A program made the translations under genes and the position numbers. The notes beneath the pieces are model-generated. The model saw only the letters and a list, made by a program, of their open reading frames with translations, was not told where the DNA came from and made no database searches. Below, in pieces: positions 7,816-19,922 of a stretch of DNA of 64,000 nucleotides (position 1 is the stretch's first letter; each line of letters begins with the position of its first letter). This DNA comes from Vicinamibacteria bacterium. GTDB lineage: Bacteria; Acidobacteriota; Vicinamibacteria; Fen-336. The stretch is taken from positions 46,977-110,976 of the forward strand of contig DATMML010000037.1 of assembly GCA_035570235.1 (NCBI GenBank), read 5' to 3'.

Positions 7816-10443
7816 ATGCCCGTCCAGTTCGGCCTCAACGGCCAGATGCGTACGATCGAGCCCGAGCCGGGAGAATCCCTGCTCGACGTTTTGCGCGACC
7901 GCTGCGGCATCCACTCCGTCAAGGACGGCTGCCAACCCCAGGGACAGTGTGGCTGTTGCTTGGCCCTGGTCGACGGCAATCCCCTCGTCACCTGCGCGGT
8001 GGAGGCCCGCCGGGTGGCGGGCAAGCAGGTCCTGACCGTGGAAGGCCTCAGCGCCGAGGAGCGGCAGGCAACCGCGAGGGCGTTTGTGGCCGTGGGCGGC
8101 CTCCAATGCGGCTTCTGCATCCCCGGAATCGCCCTGAGGGCCAAGCACCTCCTGGATCGGCGGCCGGACCCCAGCCGGGAGGAGATCGCGCGCGCGATCG
8201 ACGGCCACCTCTGCCGTTGCACGGGCTATGTGAAGATCGTGGACGCGGTCGAGCTCATGGCCCGGACCCGCCGGGGGGAGCCGCTCCCCGAGCCGTGTGG
8301 GGGGCGGGTGGGGGAGTCCCTGGCGCGCTACCAGGGGTCGGACCTCGTCCTGGGGGAGCGGCCCTACGTGGCGGACATGACGCGGGAGGGCCTGCTTCAC
8401 GGCGCCCTCCTCCTCTCCGCCCACGCCCGCGCGCGCGTCGTCGGCCTGGACACCACCAAGGCACGGGCCGTGCCCGGGGTGCGCGCGATCGTCACCGCGG
8501 CCGACGTGCCCGGCGAGCGCTGGTACGGCCTGCTTTACGACGACTGGCCGGGCTTGGTGGCGGTGGGCGAGGAGGTGCGCTGCGTGGGCGACGTGCTCGC
8601 CGCGGTGGCGGCGGACGACGCGCGCACCGCCCGCCGCGCCGCGGCCCTCATCGAGGTGGACTACGAGCCCCTGCCCGCCGTCCTCGACCCGGAGGCGGCC
8701 CTGGCCGATGGCGCTCCCCGGGTGAATCCCAAACATGCGAACCTGCTCTCCCGCTCCGTGATCAGCCGGGGGGATGCCGAGGCCGCGCTGGCCGCGAGCG
8801 CGCACGTGGTGAGCGGCACCTGGCAGACCCAGCGCGTCGAGCACCTCTTCCTGGAGCCGGAGGCGGCGCTCGTGGAGCCGCGGCCGGGCGGAACCCTCGC
8901 CATGTACAGCCAGGGCCAGGGCGTCTTCGATGACCGGCGGCAGGTGGCCCGCTTCCTAGCGATGCCCGAGGAACGGCTCCTGGTCGAGCTGGTCCCGAAC
9001 GGGGGGGCCTTCGGAGGCAAGGAGGACATGTCGGTCCAGGCCCAGACCGCGCTATTGGCCCTGGTCTCCGGGCGCCCGGTCCTCTTGGTCCTCAACCGCG
9101 AGGAATCGATCCGCATCCACCCCAAGCGGCACCCGATCACCCTGCGCTACACGGTGGGCTGCAACGCGGAGGGGCGGCTCACCGCGGTCAAGGCCCGGAT
9201 CTTGGGCGACTCCGGGGCCTACGCCTCTGTGGGGGGCAAGGTCTTGGAGCGCGCGGCCGGCCATGCCTGCGGCCCCTACCGGGTCCCCAATGTGGACGTC
9301 GAGTCCATCGCCGCCTACACCAACAATCCGCCGTGCGGAGCCATGCGCGGCTTCGGGGCCAATCAATCCGCCTTCGCCATGGAGGGCTGCTTGGACCTTC
9401 TGGCCCAGAAGGCGGGGCTCGACGGCTGGGAGGTCCGCCGCCGCAACGTGGTCTCGTTGGGCGACCTCTCCACCACCGGCCAAGTGCTCGACAAGTCGGT
9501 GGGGATCGCCAAGACGCTGGAGGCGGTAAAGGGCATCTACTACGAAGCGCGGCAGGCGGGCCGGGCGGTGGGGATCGCCTGCGGGATGAAGAACAGCGGC
9601 ATCGGCAACGGGGTGGCGGAGTGGGGCAAGTGCCGCCTGGTCGTGGAGGAGGACGGCACCGTCTCCCTCTATAACGGCTACACGGAGATGGGCCAGGGGC
9701 TGCTCACGGTGCTCGTGCAGTTCGCGGTGGAGGTGACCGGCCTCTCCCCCTCCGTCTTCCGCCCCAAGGTGGACTCCACCTTTGCCCTGGGCTGCGGCCA
9801 GACTACCGGCTCCCGGGCCACACTCTTCGGAGGCCGGGCGGTGATGAGCGCGGCCCGCAAGCTGGAGGCGGACCTCAAAGGGGGTTTGACCCTCGCCGAC
9901 CTCAAGGGCCGGATCTACGCCGCGGACGAGGTCGTCTCCGACACCACCGCCCTGGGGGCTTCCGGGCCCAAGGTGAAGACCCACACCACCTACTCCTACG
10001 CCACCCAGGTCTGCGTCCTCGACGCCCAGGGCCGCGTCGAGCGCTTCGTGGCCGCGCACGACGTGGGCCGGGTAGTGAACCCCGCCCTCTGTCAGGGGCA
10101 GCTCGAGGGCTCGATCCATATGGGCCTGGGCTATGCCCTCACCGAGGAGCTGCCCTGCGAGGATGGGATGCCCGTCACCTTCAAGCTGCGCGAGATCGGG
10201 GTGCTGCGCGCGCGCGACATGCCGCGCACTGAGATCATCTTGATCGAGGAGCCGGAGCCGGAGGGGCCGCTGGGGGCCAAGGGCGTGGGCGAGATCGGCC
10301 TCGTGCCCACCGCGGGCGCGGTGGCGGGGGCGCTCGAGGCCTTCGACGGCAAGAGACGCTATCGCCTGCCCATGAAGGATTCCCCGGCCGCGCGGGCCAT
10401 GAGCGTGGGCCGTATCCGCCCCCGGAACGGAGGCGGGCGCTGA
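7816..10443 (+). CDS. molybdopterin-dependent hydroxylase of the xanthine dehydrogenase/aldehyde oxidoreductase family; fused N-terminal double [2Fe-2S] plus Mo-cofactor domains, no FAD domain (MOP/XdhD-like)
   Basis: 875 aa. N-terminus CQPQGQCGCC...GLQCGFCIPG...CRCTGY matches the two 2Fe-2S clusters. The remainder is a typical large Mo-binding subunit. Confidence 0.8.
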   Translation: MPVQFGLNGQMRTIEPEPGESLLDVLRDRCGIHSVKDGCQPQGQCGCCLALVDGNPLVTCAVEARRVAGKQVLTVEGLSAEERQATARAFVAVGGLQCGFCIPGIALRAKHLLDRRPDPSREEIARAIDGHLCRCTGYVKIVDAVELMARTRRGEPLPEPCGGRVGESLARYQGSDLVLGERPYVADMTREGLLHGALLLSAHARARVVGLDTTKARAVPGVRAIVTAADVPGERWYGLLYDDWPGLVAVGEEVRCVGDVLAAVAADDARTARRAAALIEVDYEPLPAVLDPEAALADGAPRVNPKHANLLSRSVISRGDAEAALAASAHVVSGTWQTQRVEHLFLEPEAALVEPRPGGTLAMYSQGQGVFDDRRQVARFLAMPEERLLVELVPNGGAFGGKEDMSVQAQTALLALVSGRPVLLVLNREESIRIHPKRHPITLRYTVGCNAEGRLTAVKARILGDSGAYASVGGKVLERAAGHACGPYRVPNVDVESIAAYTNNPPCGAMRGFGANQSAFAMEGCLDLLAQKAGLDGWEVRRRNVVSLGDLSTTGQVLDKSVGIAKTLEAVKGIYYEARQAGRAVGIACGMKNSGIGNGVAEWGKCRLVVEEDGTVSLYNGYTEMGQGLLTVLVQFAVEVTGLSPSVFRPKVDSTFALGCGQTTGSRATLFGGRAVMSAARKLEADLKGGLTLADLKGRIYAADEVVSDTTALGASGPKVKTHTTYSYATQVCVLDAQGRVERFVAAHDVGRVVNPALCQGQLEGSIHMGLGYALTEELPCEDGMPVTFKLREIGVLRARDMPRTEIILIEEPEPEGPLGAKGVGEIGLVPTAGAVAGALEAFDGKRRYRLPMKDSPAARAMSVGRIRPRNGGGR

Positions 10444-17282: not shown

Positions 17283-18122
17283 GTGATCACCGACGCCCAC
17301 ATCCACGTCCAGCCCTGGTGGGAGATGAAGCCCGCCGTCCTCGAGGTCATTACCCGGGGCCGCCCCGACGTGGACGAGTTGCAGAAGATCATGAAGAGCC
17401 CGACCCACCTGCTGCGTCGCCTGGACGCGGACGGGATCGACCGCGCGGTGCTGGTCAACTACCCGAGCCCCGATCTCATGGGCTTCGGCCACAAGGTCAA
17501 CGAGTACGTGACGGAGTACTGCGCGGCCGCACCCGACCGGCTCCTCCCCATGGGGGGGGTGCATCCCCGCTTCGCGGAGGACGCGGCGGCCGAGGTGCGA
17601 CGCGCGGCCGGGCTGGGCGTGCGCGCCCTCAAGCTGCACCCGCCTCACATGGGGGTGGAGCCCAACGCGTACCTCCATGGGCTGGACGCCCTGCGCGCCA
17701 TCTATGAAGAGGCCCAGCGGCTGCGCCTGCCCGTGATGATCCACACCGGGACCTCGATCTTCCCGGGGGCGCGAAGCCGCGCCGGCGAGCCCATGGCGGT
17801 GGATGACGTGGCCGTGGACTTCCCCGAGCTCACGATCATCATCGCCCACGGCGGACGGCCCCTCTGGATGGAGCAGGCCTTCTTCCTGGTCCGGCGCTTT
17901 CCACGGGTCTACATGGACGTGTCCAGCATCCCGCCCCGCAACATCCTGCGCTACTTCCCGCGCCTGGCCGAGATCGCGGACAAAGTGCTCTACGGCAGCG
18001 ACTGGCCGGCCCCCGGGGTCCTGAGCATGGCCAAAAACCTGCGGGACTTCCAGGCCCTGGGCCTGTCCGCGGATGTGCAGGCGAAGATCCTGGAAGACAA
18101 CGCCCGCAAGCTGTTCCCCTGA
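17283..18122 (+). CDS. amidohydrolase-2 family metal-dependent TIM-barrel hydrolase
   Basis: GTG start giving VITDAHIHV (the classic amidohydrolase_2 N-terminus). Reading frame lies inside the long artefactual 15396..18122 ORF. Confidence 0.65.
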   Translation: MITDAHIHVQPWWEMKPAVLEVITRGRPDVDELQKIMKSPTHLLRRLDADGIDRAVLVNYPSPDLMGFGHKVNEYVTEYCAAAPDRLLPMGGVHPRFAEDAAAEVRRAAGLGVRALKLHPPHMGVEPNAYLHGLDALRAIYEEAQRLRLPVMIHTGTSIFPGARSRAGEPMAVDDVAVDFPELTIIIAHGGRPLWMEQAFFLVRRFPRVYMDVSSIPPRNILRYFPRLAEIADKVLYGSDWPAPGVLSMAKNLRDFQALGLSADVQAKILEDNARKLFP

Positions 18123-18132
18123 AGGCGACGTC

Positions 18133-19359
18133 TCAGTCGTTCTCTTCCAGGGTGAAGGCCAGCAGCAGCGTGCGTTGGGGGGAGCGCCGCCTTGGGCCCG
18201 GATCCCGCCGGCAGTTGTTGTCGTCGGAGAGGAGATAGACCCAGGTCTCCCCCTCCGTGCCCGGCCGGGCGTCGATCCCCTCGAAGTTGTAAAGAGAGAG
18301 CGGCTCGTCGAGGCGCGCGATCTCGCGGCCCTCGAGGTTGCCGGCTTCCAGGCTGGCCCGCTCGATCAGACGGATCCGGCCGGCCAGGGGCGGATAGCGA
18401 CGCTCCAGGACCAGGACGTCCCCCGAGGGGAGCAGGGCGGCGCCCGTCGGGCGCAAGGCGGCCGCGGACCGGGCGCGATCGTAGAAGAGGGGAAAAGAGG
18501 TCAAGGACCAGGAACGGTCGCCGCCCAGCCAGGCGGTGGCGCCCTCGTGCTCGGGCGAGGCCACTTCGCCGATGGCGAGCAGGCGCCCGTCGGCCAGGCC
18601 GGTCATGGCCTCGATGCCGAGGTTGGGCTCCAGACGCGAGAACCCCGGGGCCTCGGGTAAGGCGGTGGCGATGCCCCTGAGCGGAGGCTCGCCCGGGGGA
18701 TACCGCCAGAGCCGGTGCCGTCGCTCGAAGCTGACAATCAGGCTCCCGTCGGGCATCCGCGCCAGGCCCTCCGCATCCCCTTCATCGTGGGTCAGGGCAA
18801 GGTCCCCGGGAGCCCGCAACGGGCTCAGCTCGGGATCGCTCAGATCGGAAAGCCACCCCTCGCTCCCGTAGACGAGGGTGGCCTCGAACTCGTAGCCGCA
18901 ATCGGAGATGGCGAGAAGACGCTGCCCGTTCCGACTCACGCGCAGATCCGAGAGTCCGCCGAAGTGCGCGTCGGGCGAGCTCAGCCAGAGCCCCCCCCGG
19001 TAGCGGAGGCTCCCCAGCTCGGCTTGGGCCGGCTTCACGGGGTTCAAGGGAACGGGTCTGACGTCGAGGGCGATGCGGGAGGCGCGCTCGCGGGGAAGGA
19101 CCGCCACCAGACCGAGGACGACAACCGCCAGGACGATGAGGACGCGTCGAGCCCGGGCCCCATAAGCCCGGGGCGCGGGCCCGGGAGCGGGGGGTTCCTT
19201 CTCCGCCAATCCCCGCCCGGCTTCGGTCGCAGCGGCCGTGGTCACCGACACCCTAGACTTTGAAGAGAAAGCGCTTCCGGGCGGGCCTGACCCTTCGTGT
19301 GCTCGCCCAACCGCATCTCCGATTATCTCCCCCGGAAAGACGCCCCGTCTGCCGGTCAT
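18133..19359 (-). CDS. phytase-like (esterase-like activity of phytase family) membrane-anchored protein
   Basis: One TM segment, then a beta-propeller-like phytase-like region. True start may be an internal GTG near 19230. Confidence 0.55.
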   Translation of the reverse strand: MTGRRGVFPGEIIGDAVGRAHEGSGPPGSAFSSKSRVSVTTAAATEAGRGLAEKEPPAPGPAPRAYGARARRVLIVLAVVVLGLVAVLPRERASRIALDVRPVPLNPVKPAQAELGSLRYRGGLWLSSPDAHFGGLSDLRVSRNGQRLLAISDCGYEFEATLVYGSEGWLSDLSDPELSPLRAPGDLALTHDEGDAEGLARMPDGSLIVSFERRHRLWRYPPGEPPLRGIATALPEAPGFSRLEPNLGIEAMTGLADGRLLAIGEVASPEHEGATAWLGGDRSWSLTSFPLFYDRARSAAALRPTGAALLPSGDVLVLERRYPPLAGRIRLIERASLEAGNLEGREIARLDEPLSLYNFEGIDARPGTEGETWVYLLSDDNNCRRDPGPRRRSPQRTLLLAFTLEEND

Positions 19360-19644
19360 GAATCGGCCCGGGTCCGACCCCCCGGGCGCAGGGACCGTGG
19401 GGAGAACAAATGGCGAATGATGGGTCCCGGCCTTCGAAACGCGAGGACACTCTCGGCTTCGAAGGGCAGGCGCACCGTCTTCTTTGACCTTTGGGCGGGC
19501 GCGTCGGTTGGCTGGGTTTTCGCGCGGCGACGCCGGAAGGCCTCGTGGGCATCAGATCACAGGGGAGCGTGCGCCTCGCGGCTCCTTGCGCCGCGAGCGG
19601 TTTCTTCGACGAGCAGGAGGCCCGACCGGCCTCCCCTAGACCCC

Positions 19645-19866
19645 TCAGGTCCCCCCGTAGCCGATGGTGATCCCGCCATCTTCCAAGATCACGGGAACCT
19701 GGCGGACGCCCTTCGAATGGCCGAGCATCTCCTCCAGGTCCGGGGCCGACCGCTTAACATTGCGGTAATCGACCCGGTAGCCTCTGCCGGCGAAGGCCTC
19801 ACGGGCCTCGGCGGTGTAGGGTCAGTTGTCCTTGCCGTAGATCACGACCCGGCGGTCGGCGCTCAT
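19645..19866 (-). CDS. glutaredoxin-like thioredoxin-fold protein with in-frame TGA at the first active-site Cys codon (candidate selenoprotein, U-P-Y-T)
   Basis: Manual translation gives MSADRRVVIYGKDN-[TGA]-PYTAEAREAFAGRGYRVDYRNVKRSAPDLEEMLGHSKGVRQVPVILEDGGITIGYGGT*. This matches the Grx fold (VVIYxKxxCPYC...VPxIfi.G..iGG). Not in the ORF track because the TGA splits it. Confidence 0.5.
19787..19814 (-). other. SECIS-like stem-loop 8 nt 3' of the Grx-like UGA
   Basis: mRNA ccgCcgaggcc[cguga]ggccuUcgCcgg: GC-rich stem, one bulged U, apical loop containing GU. Loop G is about 20 nt after the UGA, as in the E. coli fdhF SECIS. Confidence 0.35.
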
Positions 19867-19922
19867 GCCCCAGTATACCGGCCTCGCGGTCGGGGGACAG
19901 GCTTGGGGTATTATCTGGCCCC

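What the first reader, a model, noticed from the sequence alone, without database searches (positions are those of the whole stretch)
19645..19866. Unannotated glutaredoxin-like gene with UGA at the first Cys of the CPYC motif (U-P-Y-T): candidate new selenoprotein
The minus strand between the phytase-like gene and hbd encodes MSADRRVVIYGKDN-TGA-PYTAEAREAFAGRGYRVDYRNVKRSAPDLEEMLGHSKGVRQVPVILEDGGITIGYGGT*. This matches the glutaredoxin/NrdH fold end to end (VVIYxK..CPYC...VPxIxxxGxxIGG). The only stop falls on the codon that normally encodes the nucleophilic Cys. The resolving position is Thr, analogous to monothiol CPYS Grx. A SECIS-like hairpin starts 8 nt after the UGA (19787..19814): stem ccg(C)cgaggcc, loop cguga, a bulged U, loop G about 20 nt from the UGA, close to E. 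coli fdhF geometry. Both halves are under 60 aa, so the ORF track missed the gene. A TATACT -10-like box sits 6 nt before the AUG, suggesting a leaderless transcript.
Basis: partly seen in the sequence, partly recalled or inferred. Interest (0 to 1): 0.85.

Follow-up and report, generated by a model that had tools for sequence, protein, structure and literature searches.

The report
Known glutaredoxin-like double selenoprotein, unannotated here
This is a real but missed 76-codon gene for a small glutaredoxin-like protein with two selenocysteines, one in the active site and one three residues before the end; it belongs to a selenoprotein family that is already catalogued, so it is a correct catch but not a new kind of protein.

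Summary
The reading frame is in the sequence exactly as described. The TGA it took as the stop (19647..19645) is followed by GGG GTC TAG, so the product ends ...GGT-U-G-V*. The gene is 19866..19636 on the minus strand and has two Sec codons.

The read-through product matches NCBIfam NF041114, "UXX-star selenoprotein family 1", end to end (109.3 bits, cutoff 72). A 2026 review lists this family with motif UxxT and 2 Sec.

In 83 related loci:
- TGA is kept at site 1 in 82; the other has TGC.
- TGA-x-x-stop is kept in all.
- Codon periodicity continues through both TGAs and ends at the true stop.
- Cys-form homologues exist for both sites, and the all-Cys form lacks both hairpins.

Each UGA is followed by a hairpin that fits the published bacterial SECIS model and shows compensatory changes. 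A -10 box 4-9 nt before the start codon is conserved across the family, which supports a leaderless transcript.

No selA, selB, selD or tRNA-Sec was seen in about 82 kb of the source contig, so the machinery remains untested for this genome.

Verdict: a real selenoprotein gene of a known family, missed by the gene caller. Its function is still unknown.

The parts
19636..19866 (-). Complete coding sequence of 76 codons plus TAG stop: MSADRRVVIYGKDN-U-PYTAEAREAFAGRGYRVDYRNVKRSAPDLEEMLGHSKGVRQVPVILEDGGITIGYGGT-U-GV*
   Evidence: Sequence and translation. NF041114 matches residues 7-76 to profile 1-70/70 at 109.3 bits, cutoff 72. Codon-position entropy periodicity continues through both TGAs and is lost after the true stop.
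19822..19824 (-). Sec codon 1 (codon 15), in the U-P-Y-T motif at the position of the nucleophilic Cys of glutaredoxins
   Evidence: TGA in 83 of 84 sequences (window plus 83 loci) and TGC in L005. Cys, or W where TGA was translated as Trp, aligns here in database homologues.
19787..19814 (-). SECIS 1, inside the coding region. Upper stem 19808..19804 pairs with 19798..19794. Apical loop CGUGA is 19803..19799, 18 nt after the UGA. A lower stem has a C-C mismatch and a bulged U.
   Evidence: Fold at -14.7 kcal/mol. Stem pair at alignment columns 18-30 is GC 47, CG 13, UG 2 and never unpaired; 0 of 500 shuffles reach the covariation score. The loop Arg codon is only CGT or CGG. The hairpin is absent from Cys forms L005 and L090.
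19645..19647 (-). Sec codon 2 (codon 74), three residues before the stop; this is the 'UXX-star' motif
   Evidence: TGA is invariant in all 84 sequences. The two following codons vary only at wobble positions, entropy 0.0/0.1/1.52. Cys aligns here in P0024/L090.
19636..19638 (-). True stop codon, TAG
   Evidence: An in-frame stop two codons after Sec 2 is present in every locus: TGA 46, TAG 22, TAA 2 of 70 unique sequences.
19615..19635 (-). SECIS 2, entirely in the 3' UTR and starting directly after the stop. 8-bp stem GGGAGGCC/GGCCUCCU, apical loop GGUCG at 19627..19623, 17 nt after the UGA.
   Evidence: Folds. 62 of 69 unique family sequences meet the published bSECIS criteria, against 23% of dinucleotide shuffles; 34 distinct inner stems; the loop keeps G-U or G-G. 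No T-run follows, and the scan calls no terminator on this strand.
19872..19877 (-). -10-like box TATACT, 5 nt upstream of the ATG; probable promoter of a leaderless transcript
   Evidence: 57 of 71 unique family upstream regions have TANNNT 4-9 nt before the start, 33 of them an exact TATAAT. Only 7 of 51 other genes on the contig do. No -35 match was found.

Best explanation
This is an intact, expressed gene for a 76-residue glutaredoxin-fold protein with two selenocysteines. It is a member of the catalogued 'UXX-star selenoprotein family 1' (NCBIfam NF041114).

How it is made:
- The mRNA probably starts at or next to the AUG and is leaderless.
- At codon 15 a UGA is read as Sec. The signal is a short hairpin inside the coding sequence whose apical loop (C-G-U-G-A) starts 18 nt downstream.
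- At codon 74 a second UGA is read as Sec. The signal is a separate, stronger hairpin (loop G-G-U-C-G) that lies wholly in the 3' UTR, because only two codons and the stop follow.
- By analogy with all bacterial selenoproteins, SelB-GTP-Sec-tRNASec binds each loop. This step is inferred.

What it does (inferred, not shown):
- Sec15 sits where glutaredoxins carry the nucleophilic Cys, and the usual resolving Cys is Thr.
- The protein ends four residues after the conserved Gly-Gly turn, which in glutaredoxins borders the active site.
- The flexible tail could therefore bring Sec74 to Sec15. The most likely chemistry is a reversible Se-Se bond between them, with the tail Sec acting as the resolving or electron-shuttling residue of a small redox protein.
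- The physiological partner is unknown.

The confidence given applies to the gene, its family and the double recoding. The Se-Se redox mechanism on its own I put at about 0.35.
For: Family membership:
- NF041114 (equivalog model) scores 109.3 bits against a cutoff of 72, covering profile 1-70/70. The three tail residues add 9 bits over the truncated query.
- The family is listed with motif UxxT and 2 Sec in PMC13188914.

Translation through both UGAs:
- In 68 unique in-register sequences, positional entropy (codon positions 1/2/3) is 0.29/0.26/0.77 before TGA1, 0.43/0.43/0.92 between the TGAs, 0.0/0.1/1.52 in the two tail codons, and 1.6/1.5/1.6 after the true stop.
- No sequence has an extra stop between the sites.

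Sec/Cys pairing:
- Site 1 is TGC in L005 and Cys in many database homologues. Both sites are Cys in P0024.
- Both sites are W in entries translated with TGA=Trp.

SECIS 1: conserved position, perfect G-C/C-G covariation at one pair, restricted Arg codon in the loop, and absent in Cys forms.

SECIS 2: 90% of sequences meet the bSECIS criteria against 23% of shuffles, with 34 different stems. Criteria come from PMC13188914.

Genome context:
- UGA is an ordinary stop elsewhere in the window. Only this gene's two TGAs have coding signal on both sides.
- Selenoproteins are recorded in Acidobacteria (PMC1794560).

Leaderless start.
Against: - No selA, selB, selD or tRNA-Sec was seen in the window or in about 82 kb of the source contig.
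- No other selenoprotein gene in the window gives independent support.
- The upper stem of SECIS 1 is only 4-6 bp. On its own it reaches the model's -7.5 kcal/mol in only 17 of 67 family members.
- Whole-segment folding energies are not distinguishable from shuffles in this GC-rich DNA: z=-0.85 and -0.39.
- The redox, Se-Se mechanism rests on fold homology only. No structure could be predicted here. The review suggests metal binding as an alternative.
- A CPYC variant that still carries the Sec tail (L091) shows that the tail is not simply a replacement for the missing second Cys.
Confidence: 0.88

Rival explanations
1. Same gene and same two Sec residues, but the pair acts as a soft-metal or metalloid ligand (Hg, As, Cu) rather than as a redox couple. 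The protein would be a chaperone or scavenger.
For: [quoted passage not shown] Other double selenoproteins in its table are metal binders. The CPYC-plus-tail variant would offer three chalcogen ligands.
Against: No metal-resistance genes are nearby. The conserved neighbours are hbd/ech and a PF04909 amidohydrolase. The fold and the cis-Pro and Gly-Gly motifs are those of thiol-disulfide oxidoreductases.
Confidence: 0.3
2. Only the first UGA is recoded. The second UGA is the real stop, and the downstream hairpin is a transcription terminator or mRNA stabiliser.
For: A GC-rich hairpin just after a stop codon is what a terminator looks like. Gene callers end the protein at GGT.
Against: The two codons after the TGA evolve as codons (entropy 0.0/0.1/1.52), and a second in-frame stop always follows. 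No T-run follows the hairpin, and the terminator scan finds none on this strand. The loop keeps G-U/G-G at a fixed distance from the UGA. A Cys codon replaces the TGA in L090, which keeps the G-V-stop tail and has no hairpin. The curated family profile includes the three tail positions.
Confidence: 0.04
3. The UGAs are decoded, but not as Sec. The decoder would be a suppressor or unusual tRNA (allo-tRNA), or a SelB-dependent tRNA-Cys (selC*), giving Cys or another residue.
For: Acidobacteria carry allo-tRNAs proposed as nonsense suppressors. SelC*-type tRNA-Cys that mimic tRNA-Sec exist in other phyla (PMC5389517). No tRNA-Sec could be shown for this genome.
Against: The selC* genes were reported in anaerobic Firmicutes, Thermodesulfobacteria, Nitrospirae and Proteobacteria, not in Acidobacteria. 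General suppression would not need position-specific hairpins that vanish when the codon is TGC. UGA terminates the other genes of the window.
Confidence: 0.05
4. It is a decaying glutaredoxin pseudogene whose nonsense mutation happens to fall on the Cys codon.
For: A TGC-to-TGA change is a single substitution. No gene is called here in the source record.
Against: The same TGA is kept in 83 of 84 sequences at 60-97% protein identity. None has a frameshift or extra stop, and periodicity is intact downstream. 362 relatives were found in metagenomes.
Confidence: 0.01

Closest known systems
UXX-star selenoprotein family 1 (NCBIfam NF041114; 'Distant Grx-like protein 1' in PMC13188914 Table 1)
   Same: End-to-end profile match above the curated cutoff, glutaredoxin-like fold, UxxT motif, two Sec, and a Sec three residues before the stop.
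   Different: Nothing that sets it apart. The window copy is an unannotated instance from a Vicinamibacteria-like soil metagenome contig. Whether the leaderless promoter and the hairpin details recorded here have been described for the family is unknown, because the primary paper (Haft & Tolstoy 2025) was not available.
UXX-star families 2 and 3 and the HUGP/GUXX-star fusion (NF041211, NF047338, NF045501)
   Same: The same small glutaredoxin-like domain with a C-terminal U-x-x-stop. All give partial matches.
   Different: Scores are far below their cutoffs: 32.9 vs 100, 42.1 vs 97, and 44 vs 325. The review lists family 2 with a single Sec, motif GxGU.
E. coli fdhF SECIS, the reference bacterial SECIS
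   Same: A hairpin directly 3' of the UGA with a small apical loop presenting G-U. Counting the U of UGA as 1, SECIS 1 places G23-U24 in the loop. From my own knowledge, these are the same positions as the SelB-contacting G23 and U24 of fdhF. SECIS 1 also has a bulged U in the stem. SECIS 2 has the GGUC loop sequence.
   Different: The stems are unrelated in sequence, and SECIS 2 lies wholly outside the coding region. SelB binding was not tested.
C-terminal Gly-Cys-Sec-Gly tail of mammalian thioredoxin reductase, and its expression in E. coli with a SECIS placed after the stop codon (Arner et al. 1999; own knowledge)
   Same: A penultimate-region Sec on a flexible Gly-rich tail that is thought to swing to a buried redox centre. 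The SECIS sits in the 3' UTR because too few codons follow the UGA.
   Different: Here the arrangement is natural and bacterial. The tail belongs to a 76-residue glutaredoxin fold, and its partner is another Sec rather than a neighbouring Cys.
Classical dithiol glutaredoxins and NrdH (PDB 7c12, 3grx, 1h75)
   Same: Thioredoxin/glutaredoxin fold, active-site position, cis-Pro (VP) and Gly-Gly motifs. Weak but consistent sequence matches at E about 1e-3.
   Different: U-P-Y-T instead of C-P-Y-C. The protein ends four residues after Gly-Gly, so it lacks the C-terminal helix. Scores are far below the Grx3, NrdH and mycoredoxin model cutoffs.
SelL, a UxxU diselenide protein of aquatic animals (own knowledge)
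   Same: It would share a natural Se-Se redox pair within a thioredoxin-like fold, if the inferred mechanism is right.
   Different: In SelL the two Sec are in one UxxU motif. Here they are 59 residues apart, and any bond between them is inferred only.

Membership tests
[quoted passage not shown] | Score at or above the curated cutoff of the equivalog HMM, over the full profile | tested here: met
   109.3 bits vs cutoff 72; residues 7-76 match profile 1-70/70. Without the tail: 100.2 bits, profile 1-67.
[quoted passage not shown] | Sec codon (TGA) three codons before the true stop | tested here: met
   acc TGA ggg gtc TAG at 19650..19636. Conserved in all 83 related loci.
[quoted passage not shown] | Second Sec in a UxxT motif (2 Sec per protein, per the review's table) | tested here: met
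   U-P-Y-T at codons 15-18. Review Table 1.
[quoted passage not shown] | Glutaredoxin-like fold | tested here: met
   PF00462 at E=8.4e-9, 35.9 bits vs cutoff 22.9. PDB glutaredoxins and NrdH at E about 1e-3. No 3D model could be made.
Bacterial selenoprotein (general) | bSECIS after the UGA: loop 3-9 nt, stem of at least 4 bp, G in the first two loop positions, 16-37 nt spacing, energy at or below -7.5 kcal/mol | tested here: met
   Window SECIS 1: loop CGUGA, spacing 18, -8.2 (simple stem) and -14.7 kcal/mol (extended). Window SECIS 2: loop GGUCG, spacing 17, 8-bp stem. Criteria. Caveat: only 17 of 67 family members reach -7.5 with the SECIS 1 upper stem alone.
Bacterial selenoprotein (general) | Homologues with Cys aligned to the UGA | tested here: met
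   Site 1: L005 (TGC) and P0005, P0014, P0018, P0029, P0054 and others. Site 2: P0024/L090 (TGC).
Bacterial selenoprotein (general) | selA, selB, selC (tRNA-Sec) and selD present in the same genome | tested here: inconclusive
   None was seen in the 64 kb window or in about 82 kb of the 180 kb source contig. The phylum is recorded as having selenoproteins.
Bacterial selenoprotein (general) | Selenium actually incorporated into the protein | not testable with these tools
   Needs 75Se labelling or mass spectrometry.
Classical dithiol glutaredoxin (Grx1/Grx3 type) | C-P-Y-C active site and a full-length domain with a C-terminal helix; score above the Grx model cutoffs | tested here: not met
   U-P-Y-T. 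The protein ends 4 residues after Gly-Gly. TIGR02181 scores 33.2 bits vs cutoff 90; PRK10638 scores 18.3 vs 129.
NrdH redoxin | Score above the NrdH model cutoffs | tested here: not met
   NF007657 scores 25.5 bits vs cutoff 131; TIGR02194 scores 18.7 vs 85.75.

The most novel reading that the evidence does not exclude
Sec15 and Sec74 form a catalytic diselenide, which would make this widespread soil-bacterial protein a natural diselenide oxidoreductase with an unusually low redox potential. It would be made from a leaderless 231-nt ORF that needs two independent SECIS-directed recoding events. In two thirds of family members, a Sec-UGA and a terminating UGA lie only two codons apart and are told apart purely by their distance to the hairpin.
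Probability: 0.3. Interest if true: 0.55.

Novelty: already known. Interest (0 to 1): 0.25.

Why it matters
There are three practical points.
- The source record has no gene here.
- Public protein catalogues hold the family mostly as fragments ending at GGT, or as run-on products in which TGA was translated as Trp. Ordinary pipelines therefore mis-annotate the family systematically.
- The family is abundant in soil Acidobacteriota, with 362 metagenomic relatives in one scan, yet it has no known function.

Biologically, it is a compact natural system for studying three things: two SECIS elements in one short mRNA, a SECIS placed in a 3' UTR, and discrimination between a Sec-UGA and a stop-UGA six nucleotides apart. 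None of this changes what is known about selenoproteins. The family, its UxxT motif and its two Sec residues are already catalogued.

Tried and rejected
The proximity of Sec15 and Sec74 is therefore argued from fold homology only.
- The primary paper for the UXX-star name (Haft & Tolstoy 2025, PMC12013261) is not held. The 2008 GOS paper cited by the review lists Grx-like selenoproteins only with UxxC and does not clearly describe this family.
- A word-indexed protein search gave only 3 fragments. DNA for the 93%-identical Cys form P0001 is not on record, and it comes from a read-level catalogue.
- A MAFFT alignment of the 3' UTR hairpins mis-registered the 3' arm, and RNAalifold gave a poor consensus. 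I replaced it with a hairpin-anchored script with shuffle controls.
- Whole-segment fold z-scores are uninformative in 70% GC DNA.
- I considered that a second active-site Cys (CPYC) might substitute for the tail Sec. This was rejected because the CPYC form L091 also has TGA-GGC-GTC-TGA and a hairpin.
- An ARAGORN 'tRNA-Pro' of 97 nt directly after the gene in L009 was checked as a possible allo-tRNA or tRNA-Sec. It has no Rfam support and it overlaps the SECIS hairpin, so I treat it as a false positive.
- The search for sel genes was extended about 8-10 kb beyond each window end and found nothing. One look-up failed on the choice of start codon.
- A scan of the window for other in-frame TGAs with coding signal on both sides found none.
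- Rfam has no match in the window.

Full report
OBSERVATION. With the internal TGA read as Cys, the product matches Pfam Glutaredoxin (PF00462, E=8.4e-9). The source is a 180,208-bp ENA metagenome contig (ERZ27253551, k141_2469804). Its gene calls leave an empty gap where this gene lies, so the gene is unannotated there.

NCBIfam gave a specific hit: NF041114, 'UXX-star selenoprotein family 1' (100.2 bits, cutoff 72). It covered profile positions 1-67 of 70, leaving three positions unmatched. The DNA after GGT reads TGA GGG GTC TAG, so the 'stop' is a second Sec codon followed by Gly-Val-stop. With that tail added, the match becomes end to end (residues 7-76 on profile 1-70/70) and rises to 109.3 bits. 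[quoted passage not shown] The correct gene is therefore 19866..19636 on the minus strand, 76 codons, with Sec at codons 15 and 74 and TAG as the stop.

COMPARATIVE EVIDENCE. One scan of species-representative genomes returned five loci. Four are from Acidobacteriota MAGs; the closest is a Vicinamibacteria MAG at 96% identity. One scan of metagenome contigs found 362 relatives, of which 80 were fetched.
- Of the 84 sequences in which both sites could be read (window plus 83 loci), 83 have TGA at site 1 and one (L005) has TGC.
- All 84 have TGA-x-x-stop at the end, mostly GGT-U-G-V.
- In 68 unique in-register sequences, the entropy of codon positions 1/2/3 is 0.29/0.26/0.77 before the first TGA, 0.43/0.43/0.92 between the TGAs, 0.0/0.1/1.52 in the two tail codons, and 1.61/1.49/1.59 after the true stop.
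- No sequence has an extra stop between the sites.
This is the signature of translation through both TGAs and termination two codons after the second. It excludes a pseudogene.

CYS HOMOLOGUES. An exhaustive HMMER search used the 58-residue stretch between the TGAs. It returned three kinds of homologue.
- Many proteins have Cys at site 1 and end at GGT, where the caller stopped at the second TGA.
- Several entries were translated with TGA as Trp and show W at both sites (WPYT...GGTWGV). They often run on through another W, because their true stop is also TGA.
- One protein, P0024, has Cys at both sites and ends GTCGV.
An alignment confirms that these residues share the columns of the two window TGAs. 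In the DNA of the all-Cys form both codons are TGC, and neither hairpin is present (L090).

SECIS 1. After the first UGA the family keeps CCC UAC ACN NNN GAG GCC CGU GAG GCC.
- The stem AGGCC/GGCCU closes a CGUGA loop that starts 18 nt after the UGA.
- In 62 unique sequences, the pair at alignment columns 18-30 is G-C in 47, C-G in 13, U-G in 2, and never unpaired. It links the wobble base of a Glu/Asp codon to a synonymous Ala wobble base.
- 95% of cells are paired, and 0 of 500 shuffles reach the covariation score.
- The Arg codon in the loop is only CGU or CGG, never CGC.
- 66 of 67 Sec-form sequences have a qualifying hairpin, 63 of them at the identical spacing. The Cys form L005 has none.
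- Counting the U of UGA as 1, the loop presents G23-U24. From my own knowledge these are the positions SelB contacts in E. coli fdhF.
- Weak points: the upper stem alone is short (4-6 bp) and reaches the model's -7.5 kcal/mol in only 17 of 67 members. Whole-segment z-scores are not significant in this 70% GC DNA.

SECIS 2. Directly after the stop lies GGGAGGCC-GGUCG-GGCCUCCU (19635..19615), with its loop 17 nt after the second UGA.
- 62 of 69 unique sequences (90%) meet the published bacterial SECIS criteria (PMC13188914), against 23% of dinucleotide shuffles.
- 51% fold at or below -12 kcal/mol, against 4% of shuffles.
- The inner stems come in 34 different versions, while the loop keeps GUC, GGUC or GUG.
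- No T-run follows, and the terminator scan finds nothing on this strand.
- Because only two codons follow the UGA, this SECIS lies wholly in the 3' UTR. From my own knowledge, this is the layout engineered to express mammalian thioredoxin reductase in E. coli.

START OF THE GENE. TATACT lies 5 nt before the ATG (19877..19872). In 57 of 71 unique upstream regions a TANNNT box lies 4-9 nt before the in-frame start, most often 6 nt, and 33 of these are an exact TATAAT. Most of the rest have GATAAT or CATAAT, and two distant members have GGAGG instead. Only 7 of 51 other genes on the contig have such a box. No -35 element was found, and no transcript data exist.

SEC MACHINERY. No tRNA and no Rfam family is present in the window. 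The contig's precomputed Pfam calls, over about 82 kb including 8-10 kb beyond each window end, show no SelA, SelB or SelD domains and no tRNA. Only this gene's two TGAs in the window have coding signal on both sides. UGA is therefore an ordinary stop elsewhere, and there is no second selenoprotein to lean on. Selenoproteins are recorded for Acidobacteria (PMC1794560).

MECHANISM.
- Shown: the frame, both conserved TGAs, Cys replacement at both sites, two conserved hairpins that disappear with the TGAs, and family membership.
- Inferred from established knowledge of bacterial Sec insertion: SelB-Sec-tRNASec binds each loop and delivers Sec.
- Inferred from the glutaredoxin fold: Sec15 is the nucleophile. 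The tail begins right after the Gly-Gly turn that borders the active site in glutaredoxins, and the C-terminal helix is missing (the PDB alignments stop at residue 70). Sec74 can therefore plausibly reach Sec15 and form a selenenyl-selenide.
- Rival: the review's suggestion of metal binding is a serious alternative.
- Against a simple reading: a CPYC variant that still carries the Sec tail (L091) shows that the tail is not merely a stand-in for the missing second Cys.
- Neighbours give no functional lead. They are a divergent hbd-ech pair (about 11-13 loci), a convergent PF04909 amidohydrolase (40 loci), and a phytase-like gene inserted in the window.

VERDICT. The claim of novelty is not. The gene is an instance of a catalogued double-selenoprotein family, missed by a standard gene caller. 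Interest is low to moderate. The value lies in correcting the annotation and in a tidy natural example of dual recoding on a probably leaderless mRNA, in a protein family whose function is still unknown.

Noticed in passing
window 19867-19922 (intergenic) and 19923 (hbd GTG start, + strand): The divergent hbd gene also has a -10-like box (TATTAT) 8 nt before its GTG start. The 56-nt intergenic region may therefore hold two back-to-back promoters for leaderless transcripts.
   Followed up: partly
family loci L002-L085, just after the tail codons: In 46 of 70 unique family sequences the true stop after U-x-x is itself TGA. A Sec-UGA and a terminating UGA then lie six nucleotides apart and are presumably told apart by their distance to the hairpin. 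The window copy uses TAG.
   Followed up: partly
window about 17283-18122 (+) and 18133-19359 (-): A PF04909 amidohydrolase gene lies convergent to, and just downstream of, the selenoprotein gene in 40 related loci. In the window and five other loci a phytase-like gene sits between them. No functional link is evident.
   Followed up: partly
database proteins P0015, P0019, P0020, P0033, P0034, P0039, P0045, P0050, P0066: Public catalogue entries of this family were translated with TGA as Trp. They show W at both Sec sites, and many run on past the true TGA stop into spurious C-terminal extensions. Other entries are truncated at GGT. This is systematic mis-annotation.
   Followed up: partly
L091 322-546 (Logan SRR8554445): A variant has a classical C-P-Y-C active site and still carries GGG-TGA-GGC-GTC-TGA plus a small hairpin with loop AGUUC. 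That gives three redox-active chalcogens in one small protein.
   Followed up: partly
L090 216-434 (ENA ERZ1823576): An all-Cys family member (CGYT ... GTCGV*) has TGC at both sites and lacks both hairpins. Its 3' flank is AT-rich.
   Followed up: yes
L009 3221-3317: ARAGORN calls a 97-nt 'tRNA-Pro(CGG)' 5 nt after the end of the matched gene region. It overlaps the SECIS 2 hairpin and has no Rfam tRNA support, so it is probably a false positive in GC-rich sequence.
   Followed up: yes
window 19575-19597: A GC-rich palindrome, CTCGCGGC...GCCGCGAG, is followed on the + strand by CGGTTTCTTC and is called terminator-like on the + strand, although no + strand gene ends nearby. It lies about 40 nt downstream of the selenoprotein gene on the minus strand and may act in that direction.
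   Followed up: no
L005 (CAYJPQ010000134.1): The only genomic locus with Cys at site 1 is labelled as a Bifidobacteriaceae MAG, on a 5.7 kb contig. All other genome hits are Acidobacteriota. The label may reflect a binning error or a real occurrence outside that phylum.
   Followed up: no
window 7816-10443 (+) and L087 15989-21290 (beyond the window start): The contig carries two xanthine-dehydrogenase-family molybdoenzyme loci, a Rieske oxygenase and a large Fe-S protein. Some enzymes of this family use a labile selenium cofactor. No selD was seen nearby.
   Followed up: no
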